Origin: Geotalea daltonii FRC-32
GTDB taxonomy: Bacteria; Desulfobacterota; Desulfuromonadia; Geobacterales; Geobacteraceae
Length of the DNA stretch: 32,000 nucleotides
NCBI RefSeq assembly: GCF_000022265.1
Contig: NC_011979.1
Location: 120,001-152,000, forward strand
Direction: 5' to 3'
Of this stretch, positions 9,429-32,000 are shown in pieces. Position 1 is the first letter of the stretch. Each line of letters starts with the position of its first letter. The notes below the pieces were generated by a model. It had not been told where the DNA came from. It ran no database searches and worked only from the letters and a program-made list of their open reading frames with translations. The translations under genes and the position numbers were made by a program.

Positions 9429-9432
9429 GACC

Positions 9433-12635: not shown

Positions 12636-12660
12636 CTTGGATTCTCCATGTTCGCGTATG

Positions 12661-12721
12661 CGTAGGGGCGTACCCGTGTGTGCGCCCTTATCTCGGGCAG
12701 ACACATGGGTTTGCCCCTACG
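12661..12721. other. Nested three-tier stem-loop between the FeS-subunit and Mo-subunit genes
   Basis: CGTAGGGGC/GCCCCTACG (9 bp), CCCGTGTGT/ACACATGGG (9 bp, one G-U in the minus-strand RNA), GCCC/GGGC (4 bp). Confidence 0.7.
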
Positions 12722-12738
12722 AGGGTTGCGATGTTGTA

Positions 12739-13254: not shown

Positions 13255-13265
13255 ATCATTCCTCC

Positions 13266-15811: not shown

Positions 15812-15812
15812 G

Positions 15813-16037
15813 TCAGCCTCCTGCCACCAAAGGAAAGAGGGCAAGACTGTCACCATCCCTCAGCCGTTGATCCGGATCGGCATGTCTGCCGTTGAGCATG
15901 ATCATGCTGATTTCAGAAACCGGAATCTGCAGTTCATCGATAATCTCGCTGATCTGCGTGCTTGGTGGGTATTGCCTTGTTGCTGCGGCAAAACGTCCGA
16001 AGCGGAATGTGGCGAACAATTTTACGGTTATGTCCAT
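15813..16037 (-). CDS. MoaD/ThiS-family ubiquitin-like sulfur-carrier protein
   Basis: 74 aa ending in ...LFPLVAGG followed directly by the stop, i.e. a C-terminal Gly-Gly. Sits between the AOR and ThiF-like genes. Confidence 0.75.
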   Translation of the reverse strand: MDITVKLFATFRFGRFAAATRQYPPSTQISEIIDELQIPVSEISMIMLNGRHADPDQRLRDGDSLALFPLVAGG

Positions 16038-19936: not shown

Positions 19937-19989
19937 GTTCTCCCTCGCTTGATTGCGTTTTGTAAAAATTAGGCGCCGGTTCTGCATCC

Positions 19990-20907
19990 TCAGAAGGAAT
20001 AAATCAGGTCTACCCAGAGCTGGTTTGCTTCGATGCGGTTTTCGGCGGAAATCGGCACCACGTATTTGCCCACAAGGCCGAACTTGCCGTTCTGGTAGCG
20101 CATGGCCGGGCCCATGGAGAACTCGAAGTCCTTGGTGTCATGCCGTTTCACGCCGCCGATCTCGTCGCTTTCCAGCCCCTGCCAGATCCAGCCGGTGACG
20201 CCGAGTTTAAAATCCTTGGTCAGGGCGTAGTTGACGTTGTAGTCCATGTGTATCGCCTGGCCGGTCTTATAGCCTTTGAGTAGGGTGCCCGGTTCCACAT
20301 AATCGCCGTTCTTGGTGGGAATGGAGTACATGAGCTTGGCGCTGGTTTCGAAGCCGTTGGCAAAGAGACCGGTTACGGCTACCACCGGTTCGATGACGAA
20401 GGCATTATTGCCGGCATTCATGGGCTTGTTAGGATCGAAATGGCCGGTGGGGGTAATGATGTCCAATACCGTCAGCCAGTGCCAGACCGGAGTGTGCCAG
20501 GCATTGCCTATACCGAAGTAGATATCTCCCAGACCGCCGTCATGCCCTTGTACGGTGATTGGCCCGCCAGGTGTCTGTGCGGTTACGTTAGCCTCCATTG
20601 ACAGCAGGGGAATGATGGAGTGGAACAGAAGGTTGCCGCCGAGAAGTCCCTTTTCCGCCACGTAGATCGGACGGAAGGCGAGGGCGGTAAGCGTTCCGGT
20701 CCCGTCCGTTAATCCCTGTCCCTTGTTTTCCACTTTTCTTATGTCCATATAGACGTTGTAGTCGATGAGGTGCAGCCCCGGAGGGGGGGCGGCGCCGGCG
20801 TAGAAGTCAGCCGTACCGTTGAAAGAACTTGAATTGAATGCCCAGGCCGGCTGGAGCAGAACGAGCGTTGCCAAGCAAACAAAAACCAAACCTTTTACCA
20901 GCTTCAT
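19990..20907 (-). CDS. Outer-membrane beta-barrel channel, probably the 'MetA-pathway of phenol degradation' transporter family
   Basis: Sec signal MKLVKGLVFVCLATLVLLQPAWA, alternating beta-strand pattern and a C-terminal ...DLIYSF aromatic terminus. Confidence 0.6.
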   Translation of the reverse strand: MKLVKGLVFVCLATLVLLQPAWAFNSSSFNGTADFYAGAAPPPGLHLIDYNVYMDIRKVENKGQGLTDGTGTLTALAFRPIYVAEKGLLGGNLLFHSIIPLLSMEANVTAQTPGGPITVQGHDGGLGDIYFGIGNAWHTPVWHWLTVLDIITPTGHFDPNKPMNAGNNAFVIEPVVAVTGLFANGFETSAKLMYSIPTKNGDYVEPGTLLKGYKTGQAIHMDYNVNYALTKDFKLGVTGWIWQGLESDEIGGVKRHDTKDFEFSMGPAMRYQNGKFGLVGKYVVPISAENRIEANQLWVDLIYSF

Positions 20908-20938: not shown

Positions 20939-22504
20939 TCAGCCTAATGTGATGCCGGATTTGCCCGGTGCCAGGATGTTGTTCGGGTCCAGTGCCTTTT
21001 TGATGGTGCGGTTGAGTCTGGCCATGGCCGGACCGTAGGAATCGGAAACCTTGTTCATGAAAGCGGTGTTGGTGCGGTTGATCGCCCAGCCATGCTTGAT
21101 GAAGGATCCCACCAACTCGTCGTAGCATTTATAGGCACGCTTCGATTCAGCCGGATCAGCGTTGTTGAAACGTAAGTCCATGACGTGGCGTGCATCGCGC
21201 CAGAAGAAGCTGAACTCGCTGAGATAATCGAAGCCATGCCGGTTGATGATTTCGGTGGCCACCTTGACCTGCTGTGCGCATTCGGCCGGGCGGGCCGCTG
21301 CAGTGGGGCAGAAGAGCATTGAGCCGCCGCCGGCGCGCCATTTGTCAAGGGGGTTCTGCTGGGTAACGCCCCCCATCATCAACTGTTTTCGATATTCGAA
21401 GACCGGGTCTCCCTTGGCCTCCTTTTCGGTAATGATCTGAATCTTGTTGCCGAAGGCCTGCTTGAAGGTGCCGGATACATACATCCAGTTCAGTGCCACC
21501 TGCTCGGGAGAGCCGTAGACGGCGCCGTAAAGATTCCAGGCCCCGACCCGGTAGCTGTCCATGAGCTTTTTAGTGGGAACCGGGCCTCCGCCGTTTCTCA
21601 CGAAGCTGCCGTTGCTTTTCCCATTGGCACTGAAGACGGTTGCCGCTTCCCAGCCGGCATTGACCAGTGCAGCGGCATTGGGCACGATCTGGGTTTCACG
21701 CAGAAACATGAGGGGTTTGATGATCTCGCTGATCATTTCCACCTTCGGGAATTTGATGCAGAATGGCATGTACCCTCCGGGAGGAGGCGCCCCCATCAGC
21801 CAGGTGCCGAGCTTGGTGACGATGCCGTTATTCCCCTGGGAGAAGAGCCCATCAACATAGGGGCCAAATCCCCATTTGAACACCTGCCAGCTGGTCGATT
21901 TGGGAATCCCTCCCATGCCGGTCCGGAACAGGTTGCCATCGGCAAGCACCACTTCCATTCCACAGGAGAAGAGGAAATCTTCACTATAGGGAGTGTAGCC
22001 GGCGCCACGCTCCAGAATGTTTCCGACGACGCTCATCCCAGCGGCAGAGGCCGGGGCATCGAGCCAGAGATCGATTTTGTTATTCTTCAGGTACTGCTGC
22101 AGCTCGCCGTAGGTTACCCCCGGTTCCACCAGGCAGTAGCCCAGTTCCTTGTCGACCTCGATTACCTTTTTCATGTTCTTGAGATCGAGAACGATCTGGC
22201 CGTTCGTTGCCGGGGTTGCGCCGCCATAGCCCTCGTTCTCGCCGCCGTAATAGGTCCAGAGCGGCGTTTTGAACTTGTTGGCAATCTTGACGATTCGCTG
22301 AATATCGTTTGGCGCAGAGGGGTAGATCACCGCGGAAGGTTTACGGGACGTCCCGTTTTCGGCGATGGTGGTCCTCATATAGGGCTGCAGGGAAGCCTGA
22401 TCGGTCCGGACCTTGTTTTCCCCCAGAAGAGAGCGATACTCCCTGATGGCTCTGGCGAATATTTCTTCTTTCAATCCCTGGGGAAGTGCAATAAAGCTGC
22501 TCAT
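20939..22504 (-). CDS. pcmJ: p-Cresol methylhydroxylase flavoprotein paralogue (alpha-prime; VAO/PCMH FAD-linked oxidase) lacking the flavinylation Tyr
   Basis: 521 aa, collinear with the upstream paralogue, no signal peptide. Asp387 (codon 21344-21346) aligns with the paralogue's Tyr394. GAGGAGG RBS. Confidence 0.8.
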   Translation of the reverse strand: MSSFIALPQGLKEEIFARAIREYRSLLGENKVRTDQASLQPYMRTTIAENGTSRKPSAVIYPSAPNDIQRIVKIANKFKTPLWTYYGGENEGYGGATPATNGQIVLDLKNMKKVIEVDKELGYCLVEPGVTYGELQQYLKNNKIDLWLDAPASAAGMSVVGNILERGAGYTPYSEDFLFSCGMEVVLADGNLFRTGMGGIPKSTSWQVFKWGFGPYVDGLFSQGNNGIVTKLGTWLMGAPPPGGYMPFCIKFPKVEMISEIIKPLMFLRETQIVPNAAALVNAGWEAATVFSANGKSNGSFVRNGGGPVPTKKLMDSYRVGAWNLYGAVYGSPEQVALNWMYVSGTFKQAFGNKIQIITEKEAKGDPVFEYRKQLMMGGVTQQNPLDKWRAGGGSMLFCPTAAARPAECAQQVKVATEIINRHGFDYLSEFSFFWRDARHVMDLRFNNADPAESKRAYKCYDELVGSFIKHGWAINRTNTAFMNKVSDSYGPAMARLNRTIKKALDPNNILAPGKSGITLG

Positions 22505-22612
22505 GTGGATGCCTCCTCGACTTTAAGCGTCTGTTTCTCTCCGGCAAGGGCGCCGGCTGGGCTTTGCCGACAGTGGCCGATTTCGGCCTCTGTCATTGCT
22601 CCCGATTCCCGG

Positions 22613-24262
22613 TCACGGGACATCAAGCGGTCTGCCGTGGTTGAGTCCTTCGTTGAAGGCATAGCCGGGATTGTGGGGGTTAAGATCTATTCCCGATTTG
22701 CCTGGCGCCAGAATATTGTTGGGATCAAGCGCCCTTTTCAACCGGTAATGGATGTCGCGCATCCCCGGGCCATAGGAATGGGAAACCTTGTCCATGAAGG
22801 CGGTATTGGTTCGGTAGGTGCCCCAGCCGTTATTGGTGAAGACGGTCAGAAGCTCATCGAAGCACTTGTAGGCCTTGTTCATTTCTTCTCTGTCGGTACG
22901 ATCATAGAGGAGATCGATAATATGGTGCATGTCCCGCCAGCCGACGATGAACTCCGAAACATAGTCGAAGCCGTACTTGTTCAGAACTTCGGTGGCCAGT
23001 CTCATCTGCCTGTCGCATTCCGATGGCCTGGCTGCCGCCACCGGGGCGAACCACATGGAACCGCCACCCCCCCGCCAGTTATAGAGACCGAACTCCTGAA
23101 GGGTGCTGCCCCCCATCATCAGCTGCCGGCGATATTCGAAAATGGGGTCGTCCTTGGCTTCCTTCTCGGTAATTATCCTGACCTGGTTGCCGAACTTGGC
23201 CTTGAAGGCACCGGAAACATACTTCCAGTTGAGGGCCACCTGCTCCGGAGATCCATAGACGGCGGCGTAGAAATTCCATGCCCCCACGTCATACTTGTCC
23301 ATGATCTGCTGGAATACCTTGGGGGGAAGGCTGTCTTTCCCCTTGTAGAACGTTTCCCGATTGGTCCCCTTGCCGTTTTTGTCATAGGTGAAGTAACCGG
23401 CTGCCTCCCAACCGGCATTGACGACGATGCAGGCATTGGGGATGATCTGGGCCAGGCGGAGCGGCATCAGGGTCTTGATGATGTCGGCCAGCATCTCCAC
23501 CTTGGGGAACTTCATAAGGAAGGGGAAATAGCCCCCTGGAGGAGGGCCCTTCATCAGCCAGACCCCGAGTTTGGTGAGGATGCCGTAGTTGGACTGGGTA
23601 AAGATGCCGTCAACATAGGGGCCATAGCCCCATTTGTTGGCCTGCCAGCTGGTGGAGTTGGGGACCCCGCCGGTGCCGGTACGAATGACATCGCCATTGG
23701 CCAGCACCACCTCCATGCCACAGGAGAAGAGGAAATGCTCGCCGTAGGGGGTATAGCCGACCCCTCGATCGGCGGTGTTGCCCATGGGGCTGGCCATGGC
23801 CGAGGGGGCCGGAACATCGACCCACAGGTTCATCTTGTGTTTCTTGAAGTGCTGCTGCAGGTCGTAGTAGGTCACCCCCGGCTCCACCAGGCAGTATCCC
23901 AACTCTTCATCCACATGAATGATCTTCTTCATGGTTTTCAGGTCGAGTACGATCTGGCCCCGGGTCGCCGGTGCTGAAGATCCATAGCCCATGTTCTTGC
24001 CGGTGCTGACGGTCCAAAGGGGTGTCTTGTACTTGTTGGCGATGGCGACGATGGCCTGAATCTCTTTGACCGTTTTCGGGTACATGGCCGCAGAAGGTTT
24101 ATGCAGTTCTTCACTTTCCGGAATCATGATCTTCATATAGGACTGCAGGGAAGCCGGGTCGGTGCGGACCCTTCCCTCGCCCAATAGTGCGCGATATTCC
24201 TGGATTGCTTTAGCGAATGTTGCTTCTGACACTCCCTGGGGAAGCGCAACGAAACGACTCAT
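22613..24262 (-). CDS. pcmI: p-Cresol methylhydroxylase flavoprotein subunit (alpha)
   Basis: 549 aa of VAO/PCMH family with an FAD_binding_4 N-domain. FGLY(394)NWRGGGGS (Tyr codon 23081-23083) matches the covalent 8-alpha-O-tyrosyl-FAD site known for PCMH. No signal peptide. Confidence 0.85.
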   Translation of the reverse strand: MSRFVALPQGVSEATFAKAIQEYRALLGEGRVRTDPASLQSYMKIMIPESEELHKPSAAMYPKTVKEIQAIVAIANKYKTPLWTVSTGKNMGYGSSAPATRGQIVLDLKTMKKIIHVDEELGYCLVEPGVTYYDLQQHFKKHKMNLWVDVPAPSAMASPMGNTADRGVGYTPYGEHFLFSCGMEVVLANGDVIRTGTGGVPNSTSWQANKWGYGPYVDGIFTQSNYGILTKLGVWLMKGPPPGGYFPFLMKFPKVEMLADIIKTLMPLRLAQIIPNACIVVNAGWEAAGYFTYDKNGKGTNRETFYKGKDSLPPKVFQQIMDKYDVGAWNFYAAVYGSPEQVALNWKYVSGAFKAKFGNQVRIITEKEAKDDPIFEYRRQLMMGGSTLQEFGLYNWRGGGGSMWFAPVAAARPSECDRQMRLATEVLNKYGFDYVSEFIVGWRDMHHIIDLLYDRTDREEMNKAYKCFDELLTVFTNNGWGTYRTNTAFMDKVSHSYGPGMRDIHYRLKRALDPNNILAPGKSGIDLNPHNPGYAFNEGLNHGRPLDVP

Positions 24263-24285
24263 CTTCTACCTCCTCGCAAATCGGA

Positions 24286-24702
24286 TTACATCTGTGCGGA
24301 AAAGGTCACCCGATTCCGTTCTTCGTATTTAACGTAGTGGAAGCTGCCGCCGCTGTCGGCGATCGCTTCGTGGACAATGGCGAAGGTCGCCGGGTCAACC
24401 ACCCCGACAAAGGTATTGGCATTGCCCCTGGCCTCTTCATAGAGGTTCTTCGTTTCCAGATAGCAGTCCACCATTTCTCCCGGTAGCGGGCGGGCTGTCC
24501 ATTCGCCGGGGGCATTTCTGTTCATCTCCTCCACGAATTCGCTCGCTTTGCCCAGGCTGGGGACGTAAAGGCAGATACCTTTGATCTGACCGGTGTTTAC
24601 AGCTTCGGCGACATGGGTCTGACTGCCCATGGTGGAGGCTGCCAGGGCCGCCCCGGCGGTGAAAACGGTCTTGAAAAATCCTCTTCTGCTCTGGTTGATC
24701 AT
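24286..24702 (-). CDS. Small twin-arginine-signal protein of unknown function (no cofactor motif)
   Basis: MINQSRRGFFKTVFTAGAALAASTMGSQTHVAEA is a canonical S-R-R-x-F-F-K Tat signal. The start ATG overlaps the stop of the upstream cytochrome c gene (ATGA at 24699-24702). Probably pcmH. Confidence 0.7.
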   Translation of the reverse strand: MINQSRRGFFKTVFTAGAALAASTMGSQTHVAEAVNTGQIKGICLYVPSLGKASEFVEEMNRNAPGEWTARPLPGEMVDCYLETKNLYEEARGNANTFVGVVDPATFAIVHEAIADSGGSFHYVKYEERNRVTFSAQM

Positions 24703-25154
24703 TTCTTTGACCCTCCTTCCTGTACCGGTGCGGGCTTATAGTTGGGATGGCTCTTGCGATAAGCTGCCAGTTCTTTCAGGTATTTAACGATGCCGTCAAG
24801 CTCCTTTGGGCTCACTTCCGACAGTCGGAAGGCCGGCATGGCCTTAATACCGAACCGCACATTGTTCCGGATGAACTGCTCGTGCAGTGGGTTGCCGGTT
24901 TTGGACAGCATATCGAACATCCCCATCGGGCCGATCTGCACCCCTTCCTTGTGGCACATGAAGCAGTACATGCCAAAGACGTAGGGCATTTTCGGCGGTT
25001 CCTGTGCCTGGGCGGCTCTTCCCGGCAACATGCCGACCAATATCGCCCCTATGATGATCAGTAAATTAGAAATTGTTTTCTGCGTTTTTTGCGCAGTAAA
25101 AGATTTCGTCAATGCACTTATCCTGTTTATCAGGGCCAGATTTTTTCCGTTCAT
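24699..25154 (-). CDS. pcmG: Monohaem c-type cytochrome, PCMH beta-subunit-like, with a long N-terminal signal/anchor
   Basis: Single CFMCH haem site, distal AMPAF Met, hydrophobic segment ISNLLIIIGAILVGML..AAQA. Start placed at 25154 behind GAGGAG; the ORF also allows 25202. Confidence 0.75.
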   Translation of the reverse strand: MNGKNLALINRISALTKSFTAQKTQKTISNLLIIIGAILVGMLPGRAAQAQEPPKMPYVFGMYCFMCHKEGVQIGPMGMFDMLSKTGNPLHEQFIRNNVRFGIKAMPAFRLSEVSPKELDGIVKYLKELAAYRKSHPNYKPAPVQEGGSKK

Positions 25155-25204
25155 TTCGCTCACTCCTCTTTGTAAGGTCTTCCCGGTGCCAAGGATCGGC
25201 AAAG

Positions 25205-26131
25205 CTACTCGCTACTCTCTTCATCCTCCGAAGAACTGTATAACTCGGCTTCGGGGAGGGTGACGTCCACCTTGGGTGCAACAAAGTCCGCCTTCACCTT
25301 GGGGGTATACTGTCGCTGCAGATTTCGCTGGTTGAGGCTGAGTACATAGCTGGACAGCCACTCTATCTGCTGGTTGTTCATGGCATAGGTGCGCATGGGG
25401 GAACCGGGGCTGACCTTCTGCGGGTCTTTGAAGTGCTCGATGACCCAGATCTGTTTCGAGTGCTTCCCTTCAAGGTTCTCGAAGGAGAAGTTGCTGGGGT
25501 CCTTGTCGGCAAAGTTGCTCAGGTCGGGGCCTATGGCGCCCCCCTGTCCGTCGATCTGGTGACAACCGGCGCAATGCATCTCCTTATAGAGTTCCCGTCC
25601 CTTGATCAGCTTGTTTGCGCCAATGGCCTCGAAATCCTTGTGACAGTAGCCGCAGCGTGACTGCATCAGCTCCTTGGGCACCATGGGGAACGGCCAATTG
25701 GCAATGGTTCTGTGGGAGGCGCCATCATAGGTTGTCGCCAGCCCCTGTCCGCCATGACATATGGTGCAGCCGTACTTTTCCACCGGATGGTTCTTGAGCA
25801 GCTCCGGATAAGGGTGGGTCCTGAGGGGGAGAGCCGCATCGGTAAAGAGGGGATCTTCTATGCCCATATGGCAGCTCATGCACCGGTCGGTCGTCTTCCA
25901 CTCGTCGATAACGACCTGCTTTACCTCCGGTTCCATGCCGGCAATCCGGTCATAGAAAGAGGGATTGCGCTCCCGGTTCATCTTTTTCAGGAGCAGTTCC
26001 TTGTATTCGGCCTGATAATCCTTCCATTCCCTCTTTCCGTCGCGGAAGGCAGTTACCCCCAGAAGGGCAATTGCTGCAAATCCGCAGATGACACAGAGTA
26101 AGGTGAGTTTGCGTAAGACTGCCTTTTCCAT
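25205..26131 (-). CDS. pcmF: Membrane-anchored tetrahaem c-type cytochrome
   Basis: Four CXXCH motifs (CMSCH, CTICH, CGYCH, CAGCH). N-terminal TM helix LTLLCVICGFAAIALLGVTAF. GGAGGA RBS. Confidence 0.8.
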   Translation of the reverse strand: MEKAVLRKLTLLCVICGFAAIALLGVTAFRDGKREWKDYQAEYKELLLKKMNRERNPSFYDRIAGMEPEVKQVVIDEWKTTDRCMSCHMGIEDPLFTDAALPLRTHPYPELLKNHPVEKYGCTICHGGQGLATTYDGASHRTIANWPFPMVPKELMQSRCGYCHKDFEAIGANKLIKGRELYKEMHCAGCHQIDGQGGAIGPDLSNFADKDPSNFSFENLEGKHSKQIWVIEHFKDPQKVSPGSPMRTYAMNNQQIEWLSSYVLSLNQRNLQRQYTPKVKADFVAPKVDVTLPEAELYSSSEDEESSE

Positions 26132-26145
26132 TCTATCCTCCGTCC

Positions 26146-26664
26146 TCAGACTACGAGTTTGGTCCGTTTCTGGTTCACCTTGGACGTATCCACCACGAGA
26201 GTTCCTGTGTTATCCATATACACTTCGTACCAGGGAAGATCCTTGGGTGCGGGGCCCCCCAGGACCTCTCCCTTGAGAGCGAAGGTGGAGCCGTGACAGG
26301 GACAGGCATAGCCCACCTCCGAATCGTTCAATACAGGTTTCAACAGGCATCCCAGGTGGGTACAGACCAGGGAAACGGCGTGGACGCCATCCTTTTCCCT
26401 GACTATCTCAATGCCTCGTCCCTCGATGACCGTTCGGCTGCCGAAGGGAAACTTGTTCAACTCACCAACCTTGAAGGTTCTCGACGGTTCATACAGCACA
26501 TTGGGCTTGAAGAAGCGGCCCAGCTGGAGAACAGATCCACCGATCCCCAGCACCAGCGTTGTTAAGGTGAGTTTTTTGACAAAGCCCCTGCGATTCTCGT
26601 CAACCGCCTCGTCCGAGGCTTTAAGGGGCAAAATCGTAACATTTGAGTTGTTTCCCAATTCCAT
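26146..26664 (-). CDS. pcmE: Rieske [2Fe-2S] protein
   Basis: CTHLGC and CPCHGS boxes. N-terminal NRRGFVKKLTLTTLVLGIGG Tat-type signal anchor. Confidence 0.85.
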   Translation of the reverse strand: MELGNNSNVTILPLKASDEAVDENRRGFVKKLTLTTLVLGIGGSVLQLGRFFKPNVLYEPSRTFKVGELNKFPFGSRTVIEGRGIEIVREKDGVHAVSLVCTHLGCLLKPVLNDSEVGYACPCHGSTFALKGEVLGGPAPKDLPWYEVYMDNTGTLVVDTSKVNQKRTKLVV

Positions 26665-26705
26665 ATCAGTTCTCCTTTAAAGGGGATGGTAGTTTCAACC
26701 TGCCA

Positions 26706-27227
26706 TTACGACCAGGGCCAGTGCATAACCCAGTTCGGTCCCCGGACGTACTGGCCGATGATGATCAGAACGACCATGGCAACGACAAAAACGGTAAATA
26801 AAAGGTTGGCCAGCTTGCGATCCCGGGAGAACCAGACACCGGTACCCTTGGGATTCCTGTCCAGATAGGGGAGCAGCAGCAGGCCCACTACGATGCCGAT
26901 GGGCACCACGATCCCGCCGAGAAAGGCCGAATAGCTGACCAGTTCCTGGATACCGACGAAATACCAGGGCGCCTTGGCCGGATTGGTCGAGTGCAGCGGA
27001 TTGGCCGCTTCTTCAAGGGGGGCGTTGAAGAGCAGCGAGACGCCGAGAATGACGACCAACACCACCAGGAAGAGCAGAAGCTCGCGCACCAACAGGTGGG
27101 GCCAGGTCTGCACCGTATCTTCAGGGCCTCTTTCCACGTGGAAGGATTCCCCCTCCACAATTGCCATCAGGGAATAGGTCTTATTGGTGTCTTTTGGAAA
27201 AATCTCTTCTTTTTTAATTGCTTGCAT
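26706..27227 (-). CDS. pcmD: Cytochrome b C-terminal domain protein (b6f subunit IV-like)
   Basis: AKAPWYFVGIQELV (a PEWY-like motif) and three predicted TM segments. Directly follows the cytochrome b6-like gene. Confidence 0.75.
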   Translation of the reverse strand: MQAIKKEEIFPKDTNKTYSLMAIVEGESFHVERGPEDTVQTWPHLLVRELLLFLVVLVVILGVSLLFNAPLEEAANPLHSTNPAKAPWYFVGIQELVSYSAFLGGIVVPIGIVVGLLLLPYLDRNPKGTGVWFSRDRKLANLLFTVFVVAMVVLIIIGQYVRGPNWVMHWPWS

Positions 27228-27250
27228 GGTTTGCCTCCTCAGTTCTTTCG

Positions 27251-28003
27251 CTAGTCTTCAAGCTGGCTCGGCGGACGGGACAACCCTCCATCCTTGCGAA
27301 TCCTCCAGAAATGAACTCCCACCAGCACCGCCGCAATCAGGGGCAGCACCGCAACATGAAGTACGTAAAATCGCAAGAGCGCCATCTGACCCACCTCATT
27401 GCCACCCAGCATGAGGAAGCGAACTTTGTCGCCGATCCAGGGCATGTAGGAGGCGATGTTCGAGCCGACGGTAACAGCCCAGAAGGCCAGCTGGTCCCAG
27501 GGAAGCAGGTAACCGGTGAAACTCAGGAAGAGCGTTACGATCAGCAGGCAGACGCCGATCACCCAGTTGAACTCACGGGGAGCCTTATAGGCACCGGTGT
27601 AAAAGACCCGGCACATGTGCAGGAAGGCCAGGGCGACCATGGCATGGGCCGACCAGCGGTGCACATTGCGCAATACCACGCCGAAGGAGACCACGTATTC
27701 CAGATCCTTCATGTTCTGGTAGGCGAGCTCCGTGGACGGGGTGTAATAGAACATCACCAGGATCCCGGAAAGGACCAGAATGAGAAAAAGGTAAAAGGAG
27801 ATCAGCCCGAGCCCCAGGGTATAACCGGGGCGCAGGGCGTTCACATGCACCCTTACCGGATGAAGATGGAGAAAGACGTTGCCGAATACGTTGGCGGCCT
27901 GTTCCTGCTCCGGGGTTCCCGCTTCACGCCGGACGAAGGATTCCTTGATGTTTTTCGGCAGGTGCTTGATAGAGTCCATAATGCTGTAGGTCGATTCGCT
28001 CAT
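27251..28003 (-). CDS. pcmC: Cytochrome b N-terminal domain protein (b6-like, dihaem)
   Basis: Conserved His pairs in [12 protein letters not shown] and [13 protein letters not shown]. Four TM helices. Confidence 0.8.
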
Positions 28004-28050
28004 GATCTTCTCCCGCTAAAATCCCCATGGGGGGAGTTGTATTAAAACCG

Positions 28051-29892
28051 TTATTCCCATTCCTCTTGACAGTAAAACTCGGCCATGGTTATCGCTCCTC
28101 CGGGACAGCGGCGGGCGCACATGCCGCAGCTGGCACAGCGGCTGTCGTCCTTGATGATGGCCGTCATCCCTTTCTTGCCGGATGACTTCTCCAGGGCGTC
28201 GGTCAGCTTCTCCAGATTGCCGTCCCCCTGAATATCCGCCAGCCGGACCAGCCTCAGTGCCCCATTGACACAGGTATCGACGCAGGTCCCGCAACGGAGG
28301 CAGCGGGAGCGGTCAAAGACCGTCTGGATACTGCACTGCCGGCATCGGGCAGCCTGCTGACGTGCCTGTTCTTCGGCAAAGCCGAGGGTGATCTCTTCCT
28401 GGGTCCTGATCCGTTCGCCCGCTTCCCGTTTCGGCACCTTGACCGAGGCGATGGTCTCACAGCGGGTATTCTGAAAATCCGGGGCCACCGTCCGCATGTA
28501 TGCTTTCTTTCTGACCTGCAGATCTTTGCCGCTCAGGTAACCGTGGATGGCGCGAGCCGCCTTCTGCCCGTCTGCAATGGCATCGGTGGCATTCCTGCCG
28601 AAACGCCAGCGGTCATCTCCCCCGGCAAAGACTCCGGGCAGGTTGGTCGACAGGTCGTCATTGGCCCGGATCAGGCCGTTTGGCGTCAGCTCCAGACCCT
28701 CCATGCCGGAGAGGGAGGGAAGGGTGGAGGACTGTCCCACCGCCAGGATTACTGTGTCGGCCAGAAGGATGGTCGTGCTGTCCGGAACAAAGGTGGGATT
28801 GAACTTGCCTTCCGCATCGAATACCGAGCTTACCTTGAGAAACTCCACCCCGGTCGCGCGCCCCTCTTGTCCCACCACCCGTTGCGGTCCCAGGGACGGA
28901 TAAAAGGTGATTCCCTCTTCCTGGGCATCTTCCTTGTCCGAAAGGCTGGCAGGCATCGTTTCCCATGATTCCAGGCAGGCGATGGCCACTTGTATCGCCC
29001 CTTGGCGCAGGGCATGCTGGGCACAGTCGATGGCCACCCCGCCGCCGCCGATGACCACGCAACTCTTCCCCATGGTCATCTGGCCATGGTCACGCACATA
29101 ATCGATACCGGTGTAGACACCCTTTAATTCAGAGCCTTCAAGGGCAAGCTTCAGGGGGTCCTGGAGACCGATGGTGATGAAGATGGAGTCGTAGCCCTGT
29201 TGCCGGAGGTCGGCCAGGGATACGCCCCTGCCGATGGGGCTATTGAGCTTCAGCTCCACCCCAAGCTTCAGGATCGCCTCGATCTCCTCCATGACGATCT
29301 CCTTGGGCAGGCGGAAACCGGGGATGCCGGTCATCAGCTGGCCGCCGGGTTGCGGGGCGGCCTCGAAAATCGTCACCCGGTAACCGAGCAGGGCCAGGTC
29401 ATGGGCAGCCGACAGGCCTGCCGGGCCGGAGCCAACGATGGCGACCCGCGGAGAAAGCTTCGTGTCCCCCGTTTTCTCCTTGGCCTTCTGCAGCCACCTT
29501 GACATGGTCAGGATATTGTTGCCGGTTCGGTCGCTCATCCATTCATCCCACTGGGAGAACTCATCGAGCCGTTCGGCGACAGCAGCGGGTGAGGCCACGC
29601 CATGCCGGTCGCAGGCAAAACGCTTCAGTGCCCGGATATCCACCGGGCTTCCCTCTGCCCCTTTCCGGCAGTTCTTTTCGCATGGAGCAGTGCAGACCCT
29701 GCTGCAGACAGAGACCAGGGGGTTGGTCTGCCTGGCAATGAGGAAGGCCTTCTCGTAATCACCTTCGGTAATGGCTCTGACGTACCTCTTGGTATCGGTT
29801 CCCAAAGGACAGGCGCTTTGACAGGCCGTCAAGGCCTGATAATCCTCGATCCCTAGAATCTTTACCTGATACTTGCCGTTGAGGTTTCCCAT
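28051..29892 (-). CDS. GltD-like NAD(P)H-dependent FeS flavoprotein oxidoreductase with a C-terminal 2x[4Fe-4S] ferredoxin domain
   Basis: GltD-type N-terminal Cys motifs (CQSACPLG, VCSRVCTAPCEKNC). Dinucleotide folds VAIVGSGPAGLSAA and VVIGGGGVAIDCA. CLRCGTCVDTC and CASCGMCARRCP. No TM segment or signal. Probably pcmB. Confidence 0.75.
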   Translation of the reverse strand: MGNLNGKYQVKILGIEDYQALTACQSACPLGTDTKRYVRAITEGDYEKAFLIARQTNPLVSVCSRVCTAPCEKNCRKGAEGSPVDIRALKRFACDRHGVASPAAVAERLDEFSQWDEWMSDRTGNNILTMSRWLQKAKEKTGDTKLSPRVAIVGSGPAGLSAAHDLALLGYRVTIFEAAPQPGGQLMTGIPGFRLPKEIVMEEIEAILKLGVELKLNSPIGRGVSLADLRQQGYDSIFITIGLQDPLKLALEGSELKGVYTGIDYVRDHGQMTMGKSCVVIGGGGVAIDCAQHALRQGAIQVAIACLESWETMPASLSDKEDAQEEGITFYPSLGPQRVVGQEGRATGVEFLKVSSVFDAEGKFNPTFVPDSTTILLADTVILAVGQSSTLPSLSGMEGLELTPNGLIRANDDLSTNLPGVFAGGDDRWRFGRNATDAIADGQKAARAIHGYLSGKDLQVRKKAYMRTVAPDFQNTRCETIASVKVPKREAGERIRTQEEITLGFAEEQARQQAARCRQCSIQTVFDRSRCLRCGTCVDTCVNGALRLVRLADIQGDGNLEKLTDALEKSSGKKGMTAIIKDDSRCASCGMCARRCPGGAITMAEFYCQEEWE

Positions 29893-29922
29893 GTTCTTCT
29901 CCTCCTCTACTCTTACCTGGAG

Positions 29923-31173
29923 CTACGCGGCTGTCGGTTTCAGGGTTCTTTTCAAAAACAGGGACAGTAAAACGCCGATCATGGACGCTATGGAGATCAT
30001 GCTGATCGCCAGATAGAAATTGCCTGATTTGCTGATGCTCATGCCGCCCAGGTATAGGCCCGCCGCACCGCCGAAGGTGCCGAAGCCGAACCACCAGCCG
30101 ATCATCCTGCCGACAATGCCGGGGGGATAGTTCATGGCGATGAATGCGCTGATCGATGGGCCCATGAAGGGGATGCCCCAGCCGACAACGAGAAGGCAGA
30201 GTGCCAGGACTGTGATGCTTTTGGAGACCGCCGGCAGGAGAATGACGATGACGCAGGCGGAGATGAGAAAACCGATGATCGCGGCCAGTCGCGAATTTCC
30301 CTTGGCCACCTTGTCGAAAAAAAGACCGCCGAAAATGGTGGCGAACAGCCCGATGATGGTGACGGCAATGGAGAGCTTGCCGGACATGGCAGCCCCGAGG
30401 CCGAGTCCCATCGGGGCATCGGCCGCCAGGTAAGGAGGAACAAGGTTGTAAAGACCGTACATCGCCCAGGCGTTGCAGAAGACGATCAGGGACCCCAGCC
30501 AGGTAATGGGGCAGGCAAGGGCATCCATAAAACTCATTGAGGTGGGAGGGGTGTCGGAGGAGGAAATGGCTTCTTCAGTGCTGATTTGTGGAGGATTTTT
30601 CCGGGTGGCAATGATAGCGAGAAGGATTGCCGCCCAGCCGGGAATTCCCAGGGTGAAGATCGTTTTTTCCCAGCTTCCTGTCATTCCGAGAACCGCTGGA
30701 GATGCAAAAACACCGATTGCACAGCCCAGGGAGATTGAGCCGATCAGCAGGCCGCTGGCCATTCCGTGTTCCCTGGGATGAAACCAGAGGGCAAGAATAG
30801 GCCCGATGGTGGCGAAGACAAATCCAACCGATGCCCCTTGAACAAGCCGGGCCATCATCACCGCCGCATAATTGCCGCCTATCCATGGAATGATTGCCGT
30901 CGGCAGGGTTGAGCACAAAAGACCAAGGACAAGGGCTGTCGTGATGCCGAATTTGTCGCAGACAACCCCGCCCCAAATGAGAACGCAGGCCACGGATAAG
31001 ACAAAACCCATCATGAGATTGGTGGCGGCGCCCATTTCAATAGTGAGTTTTTTTGCAATCTCTCCCAGTATTGGGGCATAGGCAATCATGTCCATGTAAA
31101 TCGTGCAGATGGCCAGGCATCCCGCCAACAACACAAGCCATCTATAACTGGAATGCTTTTCGACAATTCCCAT
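29923..31173 (-). CDS. Major facilitator superfamily transporter
   Basis: 416 aa, hydrophobic throughout, consistent with about 12 TM helices. First gene downstream of the sigma54-type promoter. Probably pcmA. Confidence 0.75.
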   Translation of the reverse strand: MGIVEKHSSYRWLVLLAGCLAICTIYMDMIAYAPILGEIAKKLTIEMGAATNLMMGFVLSVACVLIWGGVVCDKFGITTALVLGLLCSTLPTAIIPWIGGNYAAVMMARLVQGASVGFVFATIGPILALWFHPREHGMASGLLIGSISLGCAIGVFASPAVLGMTGSWEKTIFTLGIPGWAAILLAIIATRKNPPQISTEEAISSSDTPPTSMSFMDALACPITWLGSLIVFCNAWAMYGLYNLVPPYLAADAPMGLGLGAAMSGKLSIAVTIIGLFATIFGGLFFDKVAKGNSRLAAIIGFLISACVIVILLPAVSKSITVLALCLLVVGWGIPFMGPSISAFIAMNYPPGIVGRMIGWWFGFGTFGGAAGLYLGGMSISKSGNFYLAISMISIASMIGVLLSLFLKRTLKPTAA

Positions 31174-31283: not shown

Positions 31284-31299
31284 AGCACGGCATATGCCA
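31284..31299 (-). promoter_or_regulatory. Sigma54 (-24/-12) promoter candidate for the MFS/pcm operon
   Basis: The minus strand reads TGGCAT-ATGCC-GTGCT, with GG and GC separated by exactly 10 nt. About 110 nt upstream of the ATG at 31173. A XylR/DmpR-type activator gene is divergent. Confidence 0.55.
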
Positions 31300-31690: not shown

Positions 31691-32000
31691 ATGTACAAGC
31701 AAAGCGGCAAAACCAGAACTGTCAGCGACACTAATACCGGCGACCTGCGTGCGCGTTTGCGTTTTTGTGCCGAAACCGGCCAGATTTGGCTGCATGAACA
31801 TCGCATGCTTCTCGTTCATGCTGAAGCCCAGGCCTCGCTGCGGCGGGAATTGATCGATACACTCGGCATGGACCGGGCGCGGGGGCTTTTGACTCGCATG
31901 GGCTATGCGGCAGGGATGCGTGACTTTGAACTGGCCCGTACACGTCCCGGGAGCGACGGCGATGTGGAAGCATTCATGGCTGGTCCGGAACTGCACATGC
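31691..32000 (+). CDS. Sigma54-dependent transcriptional activator, XylR/DmpR-type aromatic-sensing N-terminal domain (3' end beyond the window)
   Basis: Not in the ORF track because it runs off the window end. My translation from the ATG at 31691: MYKQSGKTRTVSDTNTGDLRARLRFCAETGQIWLHEHRMLLVHAEAQASLRRELIDTLGMDRARGLLTRMGYAAGMRDFELAR... This matches the XylR_N 'activator of aromatic catabolism' domain. Confidence 0.75.
   Translation, partial: MYKQSGKTRTVSDTNTGDLRARLRFCAETGQIWLHEHRMLLVHAEAQASLRRELIDTLGMDRARGLLTRMGYAAGMRDFELARTRPGSDGDVEAFMAGPELHM

What the first reader, a model, noticed from the sequence alone, without database searches (positions are those of the whole stretch)
20939..31173. PCMH genes in one co-directional block with a split cytochrome b6/Rieske complex, a tetrahaem cytochrome c and a GltD-like FeS flavoprotein
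Seen in sequence: the minus-strand order is MFS, GltD-like flavoprotein, cytochrome b6-like, subunit IV-like, Rieske, tetrahaem cytochrome c, monohaem cytochrome c, Tat-signal protein, two PCMH flavoprotein paralogues, outer-membrane channel. Gaps are short (14-108 nt) and there is one ATGA overlap.

Established: classical PCMH (Pseudomonas PchCF) is a soluble periplasmic alpha2beta2 flavocytochrome with no dedicated quinone-linked complex.

Inference: here the hydroxylase is wired to a quinone-interacting Rieske/b-type complex, so cresol-derived electrons can be routed to or from the menaquinone pool.

From memory, this gene content matches the pcm cluster of Geobacter metallireducens, where PCMH was reported to be membrane-bound. 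The cluster itself is therefore probably described. As far as I know, the role of the bc-like module has not been demonstrated.
Basis: partly seen in the sequence, partly recalled or inferred. Interest (0 to 1): 0.75.

Follow-up and report, generated by a model that had tools for sequence, protein, structure and literature searches.

The report
Known Geobacter-type p-cresol (pcm) gene cluster
This is the p-cresol degradation (pcm) gene cluster of the iron-reducing bacterium Geotalea daltonii FRC-32, already annotated and a close copy of the one studied in Geobacter metallireducens; how its unusual cytochrome bc-like membrane complex works is still untested.

Summary
All eleven minus-strand genes exist at the stated coordinates with the stated domains, short gaps and one ATGA overlap.

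The window is Geotalea (Geobacter) daltonii FRC-32, not G. metallireducens. Nine of ten products are exact matches to GenBank entries already named "p-cresol methylhydroxylase alpha/alpha-prime", "PcmH" and "menaquinol oxidoreductase complex". The block is collinear with G. metallireducens pcmB to pcmM at 68-93 % amino-acid identity.

I found no report of a test.

- The pcmB-J order is conserved in every Geobacterales-type locus with enough flank, and absent from about 45 beta-, gamma- and epsilon-proteobacterial PCMH loci.
- The cytochrome b keeps its four His ligands but lacks the haem ci cysteine. The Qo motif is APWY and the Rieske protein is the "SF" type.
- The "GltD-like" protein is closest to NfnB. 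It is a regular partner of this cytochrome b clade in 45 of 50 evaluable metagenome loci, none of which carries PCMH.

Verdict: real, ordinary and already known. The mechanism remains open.

The parts
31691..32000 (+). N-terminus of a divergently transcribed XylR/NtrC-type (sigma-54-dependent) activator, cut off by the window end
   Evidence: Pfam XylR_N, E 1e-34. G. metallireducens has two XylR_N/Sigma54_activat genes upstream of its pcm block.
31284..31299 (-). Candidate sigma-54 -24/-12 element TGGCATATGCCGTGCT, 110 nt upstream of the first gene of the block
   Evidence: Pattern match with 2 mismatches, read in context. The number of such matches in the window is not above chance, so support comes only from its position and the neighbouring activator gene.
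29923..31173 (-). MFS transporter, first gene of the block (Geotalea-specific; not in G. metallireducens)
   Evidence: Pfam MFS_1, E 2e-32. Exact match to ACM18501.1. Present in this position only in L001 and L014 (L013 has a 54 % MFS match elsewhere, downstream of its PcmJ-like gene); other loci carry a 381-aa protein with no Pfam hit.
28051..29892 (-). PcmB: cytoplasmic NfnB/GltD-like FeS flavoprotein with a C-terminal 2x[4Fe-4S] ferredoxin domain
   Evidence: Pfam Fer4_20 + Pyr_redox_2 + Fer4. Two GxGxxG/A motifs at 154 and 282, and CxxCxxCxxxC at 531 and 586. Closest solved structures are Stn/NfnB-type (E 1e-65 to 3e-70), ahead of GltD (5e-47). 75 % identical to the G. metallireducens orthologue.
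27251..28003 (-). PcmC: split cytochrome b, N-terminal (b6-like) part
   Evidence: Pfam Cytochrome_B, E 8e-44. Best PDB hits are cytochrome b6, E 1e-44. His115/129/216/231 are kept; Gly64 sits at the position of b6 Cys35, so there is no haem ci attachment. 83 % identical to GS-15.
26706..27227 (-). PcmD: subunit IV-like C-terminal part of cytochrome b, Qo motif APWY
   Evidence: Pfam Cytochrom_B_C. NPAKAPWYF at residues 82-90. 81 % identical to GS-15.
26146..26664 (-). PcmE: Rieske [2Fe-2S] protein with a twin-arginine signal
   Evidence: Pfam Rieske. RRGFV at residue 25. CTHLGC and CPCHGSTF boxes. This is the 'SF' type, which PMC3509893 assigns 200-230 mV.
25205..26131 (-). PcmF: membrane-anchored tetrahaem cytochrome c
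   Evidence: Four CxxCH at residues 84, 122, 160 and 187. Pfam Cytochrom_C. Hydrophobic N-terminal segment. No close solved structure.
24699..25154 (-). PcmG: monohaem cytochrome c, the beta subunit of PCMH (start revised to the ATG at 25154)
   Evidence: One CxxCH. Best PDB hit is the PchC cytochrome subunit of P. putida PCMH, 1DII_C, E 4e-6. 72 % identical to GS-15 PcmG.
24286..24702 (-). PcmH: small Tat-signal protein; its ATGA start overlaps the pcmG stop
   Evidence: SRRGFF motif. No Pfam family. GenBank name 'protein PcmH with twin-arginine translocation pathway signal'. Homologues occur only in Geobacterales-type loci.
22613..24262 (-). PcmI ('alpha-prime' in GenBank): catalytic PCMH flavoprotein with the covalent-FAD tyrosine
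   Evidence: E 3.5e-186 to PchF (1DII_A). Tyr394 aligns with PchF Tyr384 inside LYNWRGGGGSMWFAPV. 88 % identical to GS-15 PcmI.
22505..22612 (-). Structured 108-nt pcmI-pcmJ spacer
   Evidence: Predicted RNA fold -41 kcal/mol, z -2.7 against shuffles. The spacer is only 26 nt in G. metallireducens.
20939..22504 (-). PcmJ ('alpha'): PCMH flavoprotein paralogue lacking the FAD-binding tyrosine
   Evidence: Pfam FAD_binding_4/FAD-oxidase_C. Asp replaces the tyrosine (PLDKWRAGGGS), as it does in GS-15 PcmJ.
19990..20907 (-). PcmK: outer-membrane channel of the Phenol_MetA_deg family
   Evidence: Pfam PF13557, E 7e-46. 79 % identical to GS-15.
18845..19987 (-). PcmL: acetate/butyrate-kinase-family protein
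   Evidence: Pfam Acetate_kinase. 90 % identical to GS-15.
17935..18702 (-). PcmM: short-chain dehydrogenase
   Evidence: Pfam adh_short. 93 % identical to GS-15.
16060..17790 (-). Aldehyde:ferredoxin oxidoreductase (AOR family), next co-directional gene
   Evidence: Pfam AFOR_N + AFOR_C. Found downstream of pcm genes in 8 other Geobacterales-type loci.

Best explanation
The block is the Geotalea daltonii FRC-32 orthologue of the G. metallireducens pcm system.

Shown by sequence:
- The hydroxylase consists of a catalytic flavoprotein (PcmI, with the covalent-FAD tyrosine), a paralogue without the FAD tyrosine (PcmJ), and a PchC-like monohaem cytochrome (PcmG).
- It is encoded together with a small Tat-signal protein (PcmH).
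- It is also encoded with a complete Rieske/cytochrome b complex: split cytochrome b PcmC/PcmD, Tat-exported Rieske PcmE, and membrane-anchored tetrahaem PcmF.
- A cytoplasmic NfnB-like FeS flavoprotein (PcmB) and an outer-membrane channel (PcmK) are in the same block.

Inferred mechanism:
1. p-Cresol enters the periplasm through PcmK.
2. The periplasmic hydroxylase oxidises it with water to 4-hydroxybenzyl alcohol and then to the aldehyde.
3. Electrons pass from FAD to the PcmG haem, then to the PcmF haems and the Rieske cluster.
4. They enter the menaquinone pool through the Qo site, so the complex runs in reverse. The driving force would be the proton-motive force and/or low-potential electrons fed in by PcmB.

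An iron reducer has no high-potential terminal oxidase, so this route would let it dispose of the high-potential electrons of methyl hydroxylation.

My confidence by step: identity of the cluster about 0.97; electron hand-over from PCMH to the complex about 0.6; net direction towards menaquinone about 0.4.
For: - Exact identity of 9 of 10 products to G. daltonii FRC-32 entries that already carry pcm names.
- Collinearity with G. metallireducens GS-15 at 68-93 % identity.
- Domain content confirmed by Pfam.
- PcmI Tyr394 aligns with PchF Tyr384. PcmJ has Asp there in both species.
- PcmG is most similar to PchC.
- The cytochrome b haem ligands, the Rieske boxes and the Tat motifs are intact.
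- The order pcmB-C-D-E-F-G-H-I-J is conserved in L001-L003, L005, L007, L008, L011, L012 and L025, partly in L004, L006, L009, L010 and L014 (no PcmI orthologue scored in that draft assembly), and as a variant in L017. No bc module lies within 10 kb of PCMH in about 45 beta-, gamma- and epsilon-proteobacterial loci.
- Gaps are short, there is one ATGA overlap, and terminator-like sites are not above chance.
- A XylR-type activator is divergently encoded upstream.
- The 'SF' Rieske type (200-230 mV per PMC3509893) suits a high-potential donor.
- The proposal is already published for G. metallireducens.
- A 2025 preprint calls PcmCDEF a 'membrane-anchoring complex'.
Against: - No experiment on the bc-like module turned up in the searchable literature.
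- Electron flow from a c-type haem to menaquinone (about -74 mV, textbook value) is uphill. It needs an energy input that the sequence cannot show.
- The same NfnB-like + Rieske/cytochrome b + cytochrome c module is widespread without PCMH: 0 of 80 metagenome loci carry PCMH. Its basic function is therefore not cresol-specific and may be ordinary forward quinol oxidation.
- The Qo motif APWY lacks the usual carboxylate, and PMC4122944 states that no member of that clade has been characterised.
- From my memory of the abstract, Peters 2007 found different transcriptional regulation among pcm genes.
Confidence: 0.6

Rival explanations
1. Shared-outlet model. The Rieske/cytochrome b complex runs in the normal forward direction as a p-cresol-induced menaquinol oxidase. 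The tetrahaem PcmF is a common hub. It collects electrons both from menaquinol (via Rieske) and from PCMH (via PcmG) and passes them to periplasmic cytochromes and on to Fe(III). PCMH is membrane-associated only because it docks on PcmF. No reverse electron flow occurs.
For: - The module is widespread without PCMH and looks like a self-contained quinol:cytochrome c oxidoreductase.
- It is also found next to a DMSO-reductase-family Mo enzyme in L067 and L068, where forward electron supply would make sense.
- It avoids the uphill step.
- From memory, the Peters 2007 abstract proposed alternative routes to cytochrome c or to menaquinone.
Against: - Geobacter already has several quinol oxidases (memory) and a separate conserved bc cluster, so a dedicated extra one for cresol needs a reason.
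- The strict PCMH-bc linkage across Geobacterales suggests more than a shared outlet.
- Known periplasmic Geobacter cytochromes are low-potential (memory), so they are poor acceptors for high-potential haem electrons.
Confidence: 0.22
2. Confurcation model, a specific variant of the main explanation. PcmB is an integral subunit on the cytoplasmic face. It feeds low-potential electrons from NAD(P)H (or ferredoxin) through the b haems to the Qo site. There they combine with high-potential electrons arriving from PCMH via PcmF and Rieske, and menaquinone is reduced. This is the reverse of the quinol-dependent NAD(P)+ reduction proposed for anammox Rieske/cytochrome b complexes.
For: - pcmB is adjacent to pcmC in every Geobacterales-type locus with enough flank.
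- A homologous flavoprotein gene adjoins the module in 45 of 50 evaluable APWY-clade loci.
- PcmB keeps both dinucleotide motifs and all FeS motifs, and it is closest to the bifurcating NfnB/Stn flavoproteins.
- The cytochrome b lacks haem ci.
- The mean of about +200 mV and -320 mV lies close to the menaquinone potential (textbook values).
- A bifurcation proposal exists for anammox complexes.
Against: - It rests entirely on gene neighbourhood and analogy.
- No contact between PcmB and cytochrome b has been shown.
- Homology to the Kuenenia subunit was not tested here.
- Spending NAD(P)H to oxidise cresol is costly.
- PcmB could be an unrelated cytoplasmic reductase that is merely co-transcribed.
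Confidence: 0.13
3. The adjacency has no functional meaning. The bc-like genes and the PCMH genes are simply neighbours in an aromatic-catabolism island and act in unrelated pathways.
For: - The window is a dense catabolic island. It also carries 4-hydroxybenzoyl-CoA-reductase-like Mo enzyme genes, beta-oxidation-type genes and ETF genes.
- Butler 2007 describes a 300-kb aromatics island in G. metallireducens.
Against: - Order and orientation are conserved in about 14 genomes spanning several genera. Protein identity falls as low as about 52-60 % for PcmG and PcmH, yet synteny is intact.
- Gaps are 14-108 nt with one ATGA overlap.
- From memory, PCMH activity in G. metallireducens is membrane-bound.
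Confidence: 0.05

Closest known systems
pcm gene cluster and membrane-associated PCMH of Geobacter metallireducens GS-15 (Peters et al. 2007, J Bacteriol 189:4729; Johannes et al. 2008, J Bacteriol 190:6493)
   Same: - Same genes in the same order from pcmB to pcmM, at 68-93 % amino-acid identity.
- Two flavoprotein isoforms, only one with the FAD tyrosine.
- PchC-like cytochrome, Tat protein PcmH, split cytochrome b, Rieske protein and tetrahaem cytochrome c.
- XylR-type regulator upstream.
   Different: - Different species and genus (Geotalea daltonii).
- The first gene is an MFS transporter instead of a 381-aa protein with no Pfam hit.
- PcmI has a 19-residue C-terminal extension.
- A 108-nt structured pcmI-pcmJ spacer replaces the 26-nt one.
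- An AOR-type gene follows the SDR, where GS-15 has PNPOx + aldehyde dehydrogenase within the stretch compared.
- No biochemistry exists for the G. daltonii proteins as far as I could find.
Soluble periplasmic flavocytochrome PCMH (PchCF) of Pseudomonas putida, PDB 1DII/1WVE
   Same: - The flavoprotein fold and the covalent-FAD tyrosine motif are conserved (E 3.5e-186).
- The cytochrome subunit is homologous.
- The gene order is the same: cytochrome c, small Tat-motif ORF, flavoprotein.
   Different: - No second flavoprotein isoform.
- No Rieske/cytochrome b genes nearby in any of about 45 beta-, gamma- and epsilon-proteobacterial loci.
- The electron acceptor is a soluble carrier such as azurin.
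Cytochrome b6f and other 'green-branch' Rieske/cytochrome b complexes with a split cytochrome b
   Same: - Cytochrome b is split at the b6/subunit IV boundary.
- Best solved-structure matches are cytochrome b6 (E 1e-44).
- All four haem-ligating histidines are kept.
- Seven hydrophobic segments in total (read from the sequence; consistent with PMC3509893).
   Different: - Gly replaces the haem ci cysteine.
- The Qo motif is APWY rather than PEWY.
- The c-type subunit is a tetrahaem protein, not cytochrome f.
- The gene order is cytochrome b, subunit IV, Rieske.
Rieske/cytochrome b complexes of anammox bacteria (Kuenenia) proposed to couple menaquinol oxidation to NAD(P)+ reduction
   Same: - The APWY clade includes Planctomycetes (PMC4122944), and Kuenenia has split cytochromes b in groups placed near the Geobacter split type (PMC3509893).
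- Multihaem cytochrome c subunits.
- From memory, the anammox complexes include a FAD/FeS NAD(P) oxidoreductase subunit. The NAD(P)H link is proposed in the literature quoted.
   Different: - Homology of PcmB to the Kuenenia subunit was not tested here.
- The anammox complexes are thought to run forward (quinol oxidation). They are not linked to a periplasmic hydroxylase.
NfnB / StnC / GltD family of FeS flavoproteins
   Same: PcmB has the Fer4_20 domain, FAD and NAD(P) Rossmann motifs. Its best solved matches are NfnI-L, NfnB and Stn.
   Different: - PcmB carries an extra C-terminal 2x[4Fe-4S] ferredoxin domain.
- It is encoded next to a membrane cytochrome b rather than next to NfnA or a glutamate synthase large subunit.

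Membership tests
Geobacter-type pcm cluster (membrane-associated PCMH system) | Orthology and collinearity with G. metallireducens pcmB-pcmM | tested here: met
   68-93 % identity for 13 proteins, in the same order and orientation.
Geobacter-type pcm cluster (membrane-associated PCMH system) | Two flavoprotein isoforms, only one carrying the covalent-FAD tyrosine | tested here: met
   PcmI has Tyr394. PcmJ has Asp at that position, as in GS-15.
Geobacter-type pcm cluster (membrane-associated PCMH system) | Rieske/cytochrome b/cytochrome c genes (pcmCDEF) directly upstream of the PCMH genes | tested here: met
Geobacter-type pcm cluster (membrane-associated PCMH system) | PCMH activity located in the membrane fraction, and induction by p-cresol | not testable with these tools
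   This needs cell fractionation and expression data for G. daltonii. For G. metallireducens I know it only from my memory of Peters 2007, which the paper library does not hold.
PCMH / vanillyl-alcohol oxidase flavoprotein family (PchF) | FAD_binding_4 + FAD-oxidase_C domains and high similarity to PchF | tested here: met
   Pfam. E 3.5e-186 to 1DII_A.
PCMH / vanillyl-alcohol oxidase flavoprotein family (PchF) | 8-alpha-O-tyrosyl FAD attachment site (PchF Tyr384) | tested here: met
   Met in PcmI (Tyr394). Not met in the paralogue PcmJ, which has Asp.
PCMH cytochrome subunit (PchC) | Small monohaem c-type cytochrome homologous to PchC, with a signal peptide | tested here: met
   One CxxCH. Best PDB hit is 1DII_C, E 4e-6. 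A hydrophobic N-terminal segment ending in AQA is read from the sequence.
Cytochrome b6f-type (split) Rieske/cytochrome b complex | Split cytochrome b with four haem-ligating histidines | tested here: met
   His115/129/216/231. Separate Cytochrom_B_C gene.
Cytochrome b6f-type (split) Rieske/cytochrome b complex | Cysteine that covalently binds haem ci (b6 Cys35) | tested here: not met
   Gly64 (Thr62 if shifted by two residues) occupies that position.
Cytochrome b6f-type (split) Rieske/cytochrome b complex | PEWY Qo motif | tested here: not met
   The motif is APWY at subunit IV residues 86-89. This places the protein in the uncharacterised APWY clade of PMC4122944.
Rieske [2Fe-2S] proteins of bc complexes | CxHxGC and CxCHxS boxes, Tat export | tested here: met
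   CTHLGC, CPCHGSTF and RRGFV.
NfnB/GltD-like FeS flavoproteins | Fer4_20 domain plus FAD and NAD(P) dinucleotide-binding motifs | tested here: met
   Pfam. Motifs at residues 154 and 282. PDB matches.
Flavoprotein-associated APWY-clade Rieske/cytochrome b module | NfnB/GltD-like gene adjacent to Rieske, cytochrome b, subunit IV and multihaem cytochrome c genes | tested here: met
   Met in the window and in all Geobacterales-type loci with enough flank. Met in 45 of 50 evaluable metagenome loci.
Anammox-type bifurcating Rieske/cytochrome b complexes | Sequence homology of the subunits to the Kuenenia complexes, and NAD(P)-linked activity | not tested
The link rests on the literature and on memory.

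The most novel reading that the evidence does not exclude
PcmBCDEF belongs to a widespread but uncharacterised class of Rieske/cytochrome b complexes that carry an NfnB-like flavoprotein on the cytoplasmic side. In the pcm system it would run as an electron-confurcating menaquinone reductase. High-potential electrons from a periplasmic hydroxylase arrive via cytochrome c and Rieske. Low-potential electrons from NAD(P)H arrive via PcmB and the b haems. They meet at an APWY-type Qo site. This would be the first concrete physiological role, and a tractable genetic system, for the complexes proposed to bifurcate in anammox bacteria.
Probability: 0.13. Interest if true: 0.75.

Novelty: already known. 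Interest (0 to 1): 0.3.

Why it matters
The cluster itself adds nothing new. It is an annotated orthologue of a system described in 2007-2008.

Two things give it residual value:
- Nobody appears to have tested what the bc-like complex does. The APWY clade of Rieske/cytochrome b complexes, with its NfnB-like flavoprotein partner, has no characterised member, yet it is common in soil and peat metagenomes.
- Geobacter and Geotalea are genetically tractable and offer a clean phenotype (growth on p-cresol). The pcm cluster is therefore probably the best entry point for finding out how this class of complex works. That includes the question of whether Rieske/cytochrome b complexes can run in reverse or confurcate.

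It also bears on how strict anaerobes dispose of the high-potential electrons released by oxygen-independent methyl hydroxylation.

Tried and rejected
- Primary papers. I tried to read Peters 2007 (PMC1913446), Johannes 2008 (PMC2566014) and Carmona 2009 (PMC2650882). None is held. Their content is cited only through other papers or marked as memory.
- Later experiments on the bc module. Six literature searches found none. A search for pchX returned only unrelated papers.
- Window identity. I expected G. metallireducens itself and rejected that. The exact matches are to G. daltonii FRC-32, and GS-15 proteins are only 68-93 % identical.
- True b6f type with haem ci. Rejected: there is no cysteine at the Cys35 position. 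This differs from what PMC3509893 reports for one of the two Geobacter Rieske/cytochrome b complexes. I did not establish which complex that paper refers to.
- Sequence homology of PcmH to the ORF between the cytochrome and flavoprotein genes in other proteobacteria. jackhmmer found only Geobacterales-type copies. Two hits at E 0.002-0.005 are not significant. Only position and the twin-arginine motif are shared.
- Intrinsic terminators and sigma-70 promoters inside the block. Counts equal those of shuffled sequence, so the scan gives no information on operon boundaries.
- Sigma-54 pattern. One well-placed match, but the window-wide count is below the chance expectation. I keep it only as a candidate.
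- EBDH-type hydroxylase in L067/L068. I considered whether the Mo enzyme next to the related module is one. Its best solved matches are DMSO/TMAO reductases, so that idea is not supported.
- PcmF. No informative solved structure.
- Tools not used. Structure prediction, fold search and the representative-protein search would not have changed the verdict.

Full report
**1. What is in the sequence**

Listing ORFs on both strands shows an uninterrupted run of minus-strand genes from 31173 down to at least 16060.
- MFS transporter: 29923-31173
- FeS flavoprotein with Fer4_20, Pyr_redox_2 and a C-terminal 2x[4Fe-4S] domain: 28051-29892
- Cytochrome b/b6: 27251-28003
- Subunit IV-like Cytochrom_B_C protein: 26706-27227
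- Rieske protein: 26146-26664
- c-type cytochrome with four CxxCH: 25205-26131
- c-type cytochrome with one CxxCH: 24699-25202
- 138-aa protein with an SRRGFF twin-arginine motif and no Pfam family: 24286-24702
- Two FAD_binding_4/FAD-oxidase_C proteins: 22613-24262 and 20939-22504
- Phenol_MetA_deg outer-membrane protein: 19990-20907

The gaps are 30, 47, 23, 41, 14, 2, -4 (ATGA), 23, 108 and 31 nt, most of them ending in a GGAGG-type ribosome-binding site.

One correction concerns the monohaem cytochrome. Its 167-aa ORF with a TTG start is the only product not found in the protein collection. An ATG at 25154 lies 8 nt after a GAGGAG ribosome-binding site. The gene is therefore more likely 24699-25154 (151 aa), with a 50-nt gap.

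The co-directional block continues downstream with an acetate-kinase-family gene, an SDR and an aldehyde:ferredoxin oxidoreductase.

**2. Where it comes from**

An exact-sequence look-up shows that nine of ten products are identical to GenBank proteins ACM18492-ACM18501 of Geotalea (formerly Geobacter) daltonii FRC-32. Those entries are already named:
- 'p-cresol methylhydroxylase, alpha subunit' and 'alpha-prime subunit'
- 'protein PcmH with twin-arginine translocation pathway signal'
- 'menaquinol oxidoreductase complex, cytochrome b subunit / membrane protein subunit / iron-sulfur cluster-binding subunit / cytochrome c subunit, 4 heme-binding sites'

So the window is not G. metallireducens, but the cluster is already annotated by analogy with it.

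I recovered the G. metallireducens GS-15 locus (L065, CP000148.1). It has the same genes in the same order. Pairwise identities are:

| Protein | Identity to GS-15 (%) |
|---|---|
| PcmB | 75 |
| PcmC | 83 |
| PcmD | 81 |
| PcmE | 74 |
| PcmF | 70 |
| PcmG | 72 |
| PcmH | 68 |
| PcmI | 88 |
| PcmJ | 74 |
| PcmK | 79 |
| PcmL | 90 |
| PcmM | 93 |

Differences from GS-15:
- Geotalea has an MFS transporter in first position, where GS-15 and most other loci have a 381-aa protein with no Pfam hit.
- PcmI carries a 19-residue C-terminal extension.
- The pcmI-pcmJ spacer is 108 nt and strongly structured (-41 kcal/mol, z -2.7), against 26 nt in GS-15.

**3. Anatomy of the hydroxylase**

- PcmI aligns end to end with P. 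putida PchF (1DII_A, E 3.5e-186). Its Tyr394 lies in LYNWRGGGGSMWFAPV opposite PchF Tyr384, the covalent-FAD site. Two preprints quote Tyr394 of G. metallireducens PcmI as the FAD attachment site, and one of them adds that deleting pcmI abolishes p-cresol degradation.
- PcmJ has Asp at that position in both species. It is therefore a flavoprotein paralogue without the covalent-FAD tyrosine.
- PcmG's best solved match is PchC, the PCMH cytochrome subunit.
- Neither flavoprotein has a signal peptide. PcmH, encoded between the cytochrome and flavoprotein genes, has a Tat signal.

**4. Anatomy of the bc-like module**

- Cytochrome b (PcmC) matches cytochrome b6 best (E 1e-44). It keeps His115, 129, 216 and 231. 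It has Gly64 where b6 has the haem ci cysteine.
- Subunit IV (PcmD) carries APWY instead of PEWY. This places the complex in the 'APWY clade' of Kao and Hunte (PMC4122944). According to that paper, no member of the clade had been characterised in vitro or in vivo.
- The Rieske protein has a Tat motif and the boxes CTHLGC and CPCHGSTF. This is the 'SF' type, which PMC3509893 correlates with 200-230 mV.
- PcmF has a hydrophobic N-terminal anchor and four haem sites. It has no close solved relative.
- PcmB has no signal peptide. It keeps both dinucleotide-binding motifs and two CxxCxxCxxxC motifs. It is closer to the NfnB/Stn flavoproteins (E 1e-65 to 3e-70) than to GltD (5e-47).

**5. Is the linkage meaningful?**

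I fetched 64 genomic loci encoding PCMH flavoprotein relatives and scored them with all eleven window proteins.
- The order pcmB-C-D-E-F-G-H-I-J is kept in nine Geobacterales-type loci with enough flank, plus L014 except that no PcmI orthologue scored in that draft assembly. These are Geotalea, Geobacter, Geomonas, Citrifermentans and Desulfuromonadaceae, plus one MAG labelled Anaeromyxobacteraceae. Four truncated contigs hold partial copies, and L017 holds a variant.
- None of about 45 beta-, gamma- and epsilon-proteobacterial PCMH loci has any bc-module gene within 10 kb.

This is good comparative evidence for a functional link in this lineage.

Terminator-like and sigma-70-like matches inside the block do not exceed chance. 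Upstream lies a 517-nt AT-rich intergenic region. It contains a candidate sigma-54 element (31299-31284) and ends at a divergently transcribed gene whose N-terminus is a XylR_N domain (E 1e-34). This mirrors the XylR-type activators next to the GS-15 cluster.

**6. The module beyond PCMH**

Cytochrome b relatives at about 69 % identity (L067, L068) lie in a cluster ordered as follows: NfnB-like flavoprotein (in L068 only a cut 118-aa ORF lies in this position), Rieske, cytochrome b, subunit IV, an approximately 710-aa multihaem cytochrome c. This is followed by a Fer4_11 protein, an SRPBCC protein, a Mo-bisPGD enzyme and a NarJ-like chaperone. The Mo enzyme's best solved matches are DMSO/TMAO reductases.

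A metagenome scan seeded with a subunit IV alignment (A1) returned 80 loci at 40-69 % identity. None encodes PCMH. In 45 of the 50 loci where the flanks allow a judgement, an NfnB/GltD-like gene directly adjoins Rieske, cytochrome b, subunit IV and cytochrome c (35 upstream, 10 downstream).

The flavoprotein is therefore a regular component of this cytochrome b clade. The PCMH association looks like a lineage-specific recruitment of a portable module.

**7. Mechanism**

*Shown:* the gene content, the cofactor-binding residues, the export signals and the conserved linkage.

*Inferred:* p-cresol enters through PcmK. The periplasmic PcmI/J/G enzyme hydroxylates it. Electrons pass from the PcmG haem to the PcmF haems and the Rieske cluster, and the complex connects them to menaquinone.

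This is the published hypothesis of Peters 2007 and Johannes 2008, as reported in PMC4122944. A 2025 preprint refers to PcmCDEF as a 'membrane-anchoring complex'.

The step from a c-type haem to menaquinone is uphill. It requires either a pmf-driven reversed Q cycle or a contribution of low-potential electrons through PcmB. The second option is the reverse of the bifurcation proposed for anammox complexes.

A forward-running complex that shares PcmF as a common outlet is a serious rival. Sequence cannot decide between them. I found no experimental test in the searchable literature.

**8. Comparison and novelty**

The cluster is a member of the Geobacter-type pcm system by every feature testable here. 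It is related to, but not a member of, the b6f type: no haem ci cysteine and no PEWY.

The cluster, its annotation and the wiring hypothesis are already known.
- the breadth of the conserved linkage;
- the specific cofactor-site observations for the G. daltonii proteins;
- the quantified association of the NfnB-like flavoprotein with the APWY clade. From memory, this association has been noted qualitatively for anammox and other multi-complex organisms.

**9. Verdict**

Novelty: already known. Interest 0.3.

The most novel reading that remains open is that PcmBCDEF is a confurcating menaquinone reductase. I give it a probability of about 0.13; it would be of high interest if true.

Noticed in passing
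window 24286-24702 (-); loci L016, L018, L019, L022, L032, L045, L049, L052, L054, L060 just upstream of the flavoprotein gene: In all ten of these twelve sampled beta-, gamma- and epsilon-proteobacterial PCMH loci, the ORF between the cytochrome c gene and the flavoprotein gene starts with a twin-arginine-like motif (RRSILKG, RRQFLKN, SRRHLL, TRRQLL, SRRELL, RRDFL, RRTFI, RRSFL). This is the position of pcmH (and, from memory, of pchX in Pseudomonas). The flavoprotein subunits have no signal peptide. These small proteins may therefore be Tat 'hitch-hiker' escorts that carry the folded, FAD-loaded flavoprotein into the periplasm. PcmH shares no significant sequence similarity with them. No literature on pchX was found.
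   Followed up: partly
L067:7610-17976 and L068:1-8900: A close relative of the module (cytochrome b 69 % identical) is clustered with a DMSO-reductase-family Mo enzyme, a Fer4_11 subunit, an SRPBCC protein and a NarJ-like chaperone instead of PCMH. It includes an NfnB-like flavoprotein gene (L067; at the L068 contig start only a cut 118-aa ORF) and an approximately 710-aa multihaem cytochrome c. The substrate is unknown.
   Followed up: partly
L070-L149 (metagenome loci): The APWY-type split cytochrome b/Rieske module with an adjacent NfnB/GltD-like flavoprotein gene is abundant in peat, soil and sediment metagenomes. The usual order is flavoprotein, Rieske, cytochrome b, subunit IV, cytochrome c. 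A subgroup has the flavoprotein gene about 4.8 kb downstream. The host taxa were not determined.
   Followed up: partly
window 22505-22612 (-): The 108-nt spacer between the two flavoprotein genes folds into a stable structure (-41 kcal/mol, z -2.7). Its core is an 11-bp hairpin, GACAGAGGCCGAAAUCGGCCACUGUC, and no U-tract follows. G. metallireducens has only 26 nt here. It may be an mRNA processing or stability element that sets the PcmI:PcmJ ratio.
   Followed up: partly
window 16060-17790 (-) and 14966-15856 (-): A tungsten/molybdenum-type aldehyde:ferredoxin oxidoreductase and a ThiF/MoeB-like gene follow the pcm genes. AOR relatives occupy this position in 8 other Geobacterales-type pcm loci. 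GS-15 has PNPOx and an NAD(P)-type aldehyde dehydrogenase directly after the SDR, and L003 has both. The AOR may oxidise 4-hydroxybenzaldehyde with ferredoxin as acceptor.
   Followed up: partly
window 10332-14135 (-), 7108-10194 (-): Three genes of a xanthine-dehydrogenase-family Mo enzyme are present: MoCoBD large subunit, [2Fe-2S] subunit and FAD_binding_5 subunit. This fits 4-hydroxybenzoyl-CoA reductase (PcmRST/HcrABC-like). A MarR regulator precedes them. XdhC, YqeC and MobA-like cofactor-maturation genes follow.
   Followed up: no
window 35-5756 (+) and 6047-6892 (+): Plus-strand genes for ETF beta and alpha, a Zn alcohol dehydrogenase, an enoyl-CoA hydratase, an SDR and a thiolase are present, followed by an Amidohydro_2 protein. 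They look like lower benzoyl-CoA-pathway or beta-oxidation-type genes, so the whole window is an aromatic-catabolism island.
   Followed up: no
window 29923-31173 (-): The MFS transporter that opens the block occupies this first position only in Geotalea loci (window, L001, L014; L013 has a 54 % MFS match in a different position). Other Geobacterales-type pcm loci have a conserved 381-aa protein with no Pfam family at this position.
   Followed up: partly
L017:6769-12162: A MAG labelled 'delta proteobacterium' carries a rearranged variant. It shows Rieske, tetrahaem cytochrome and PcmH-like fragments, apparently frameshifted flavoprotein ORFs, and no detected cytochrome b at 50 % coverage or more. 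This may be an assembly artefact or a decaying cluster.
   Followed up: no
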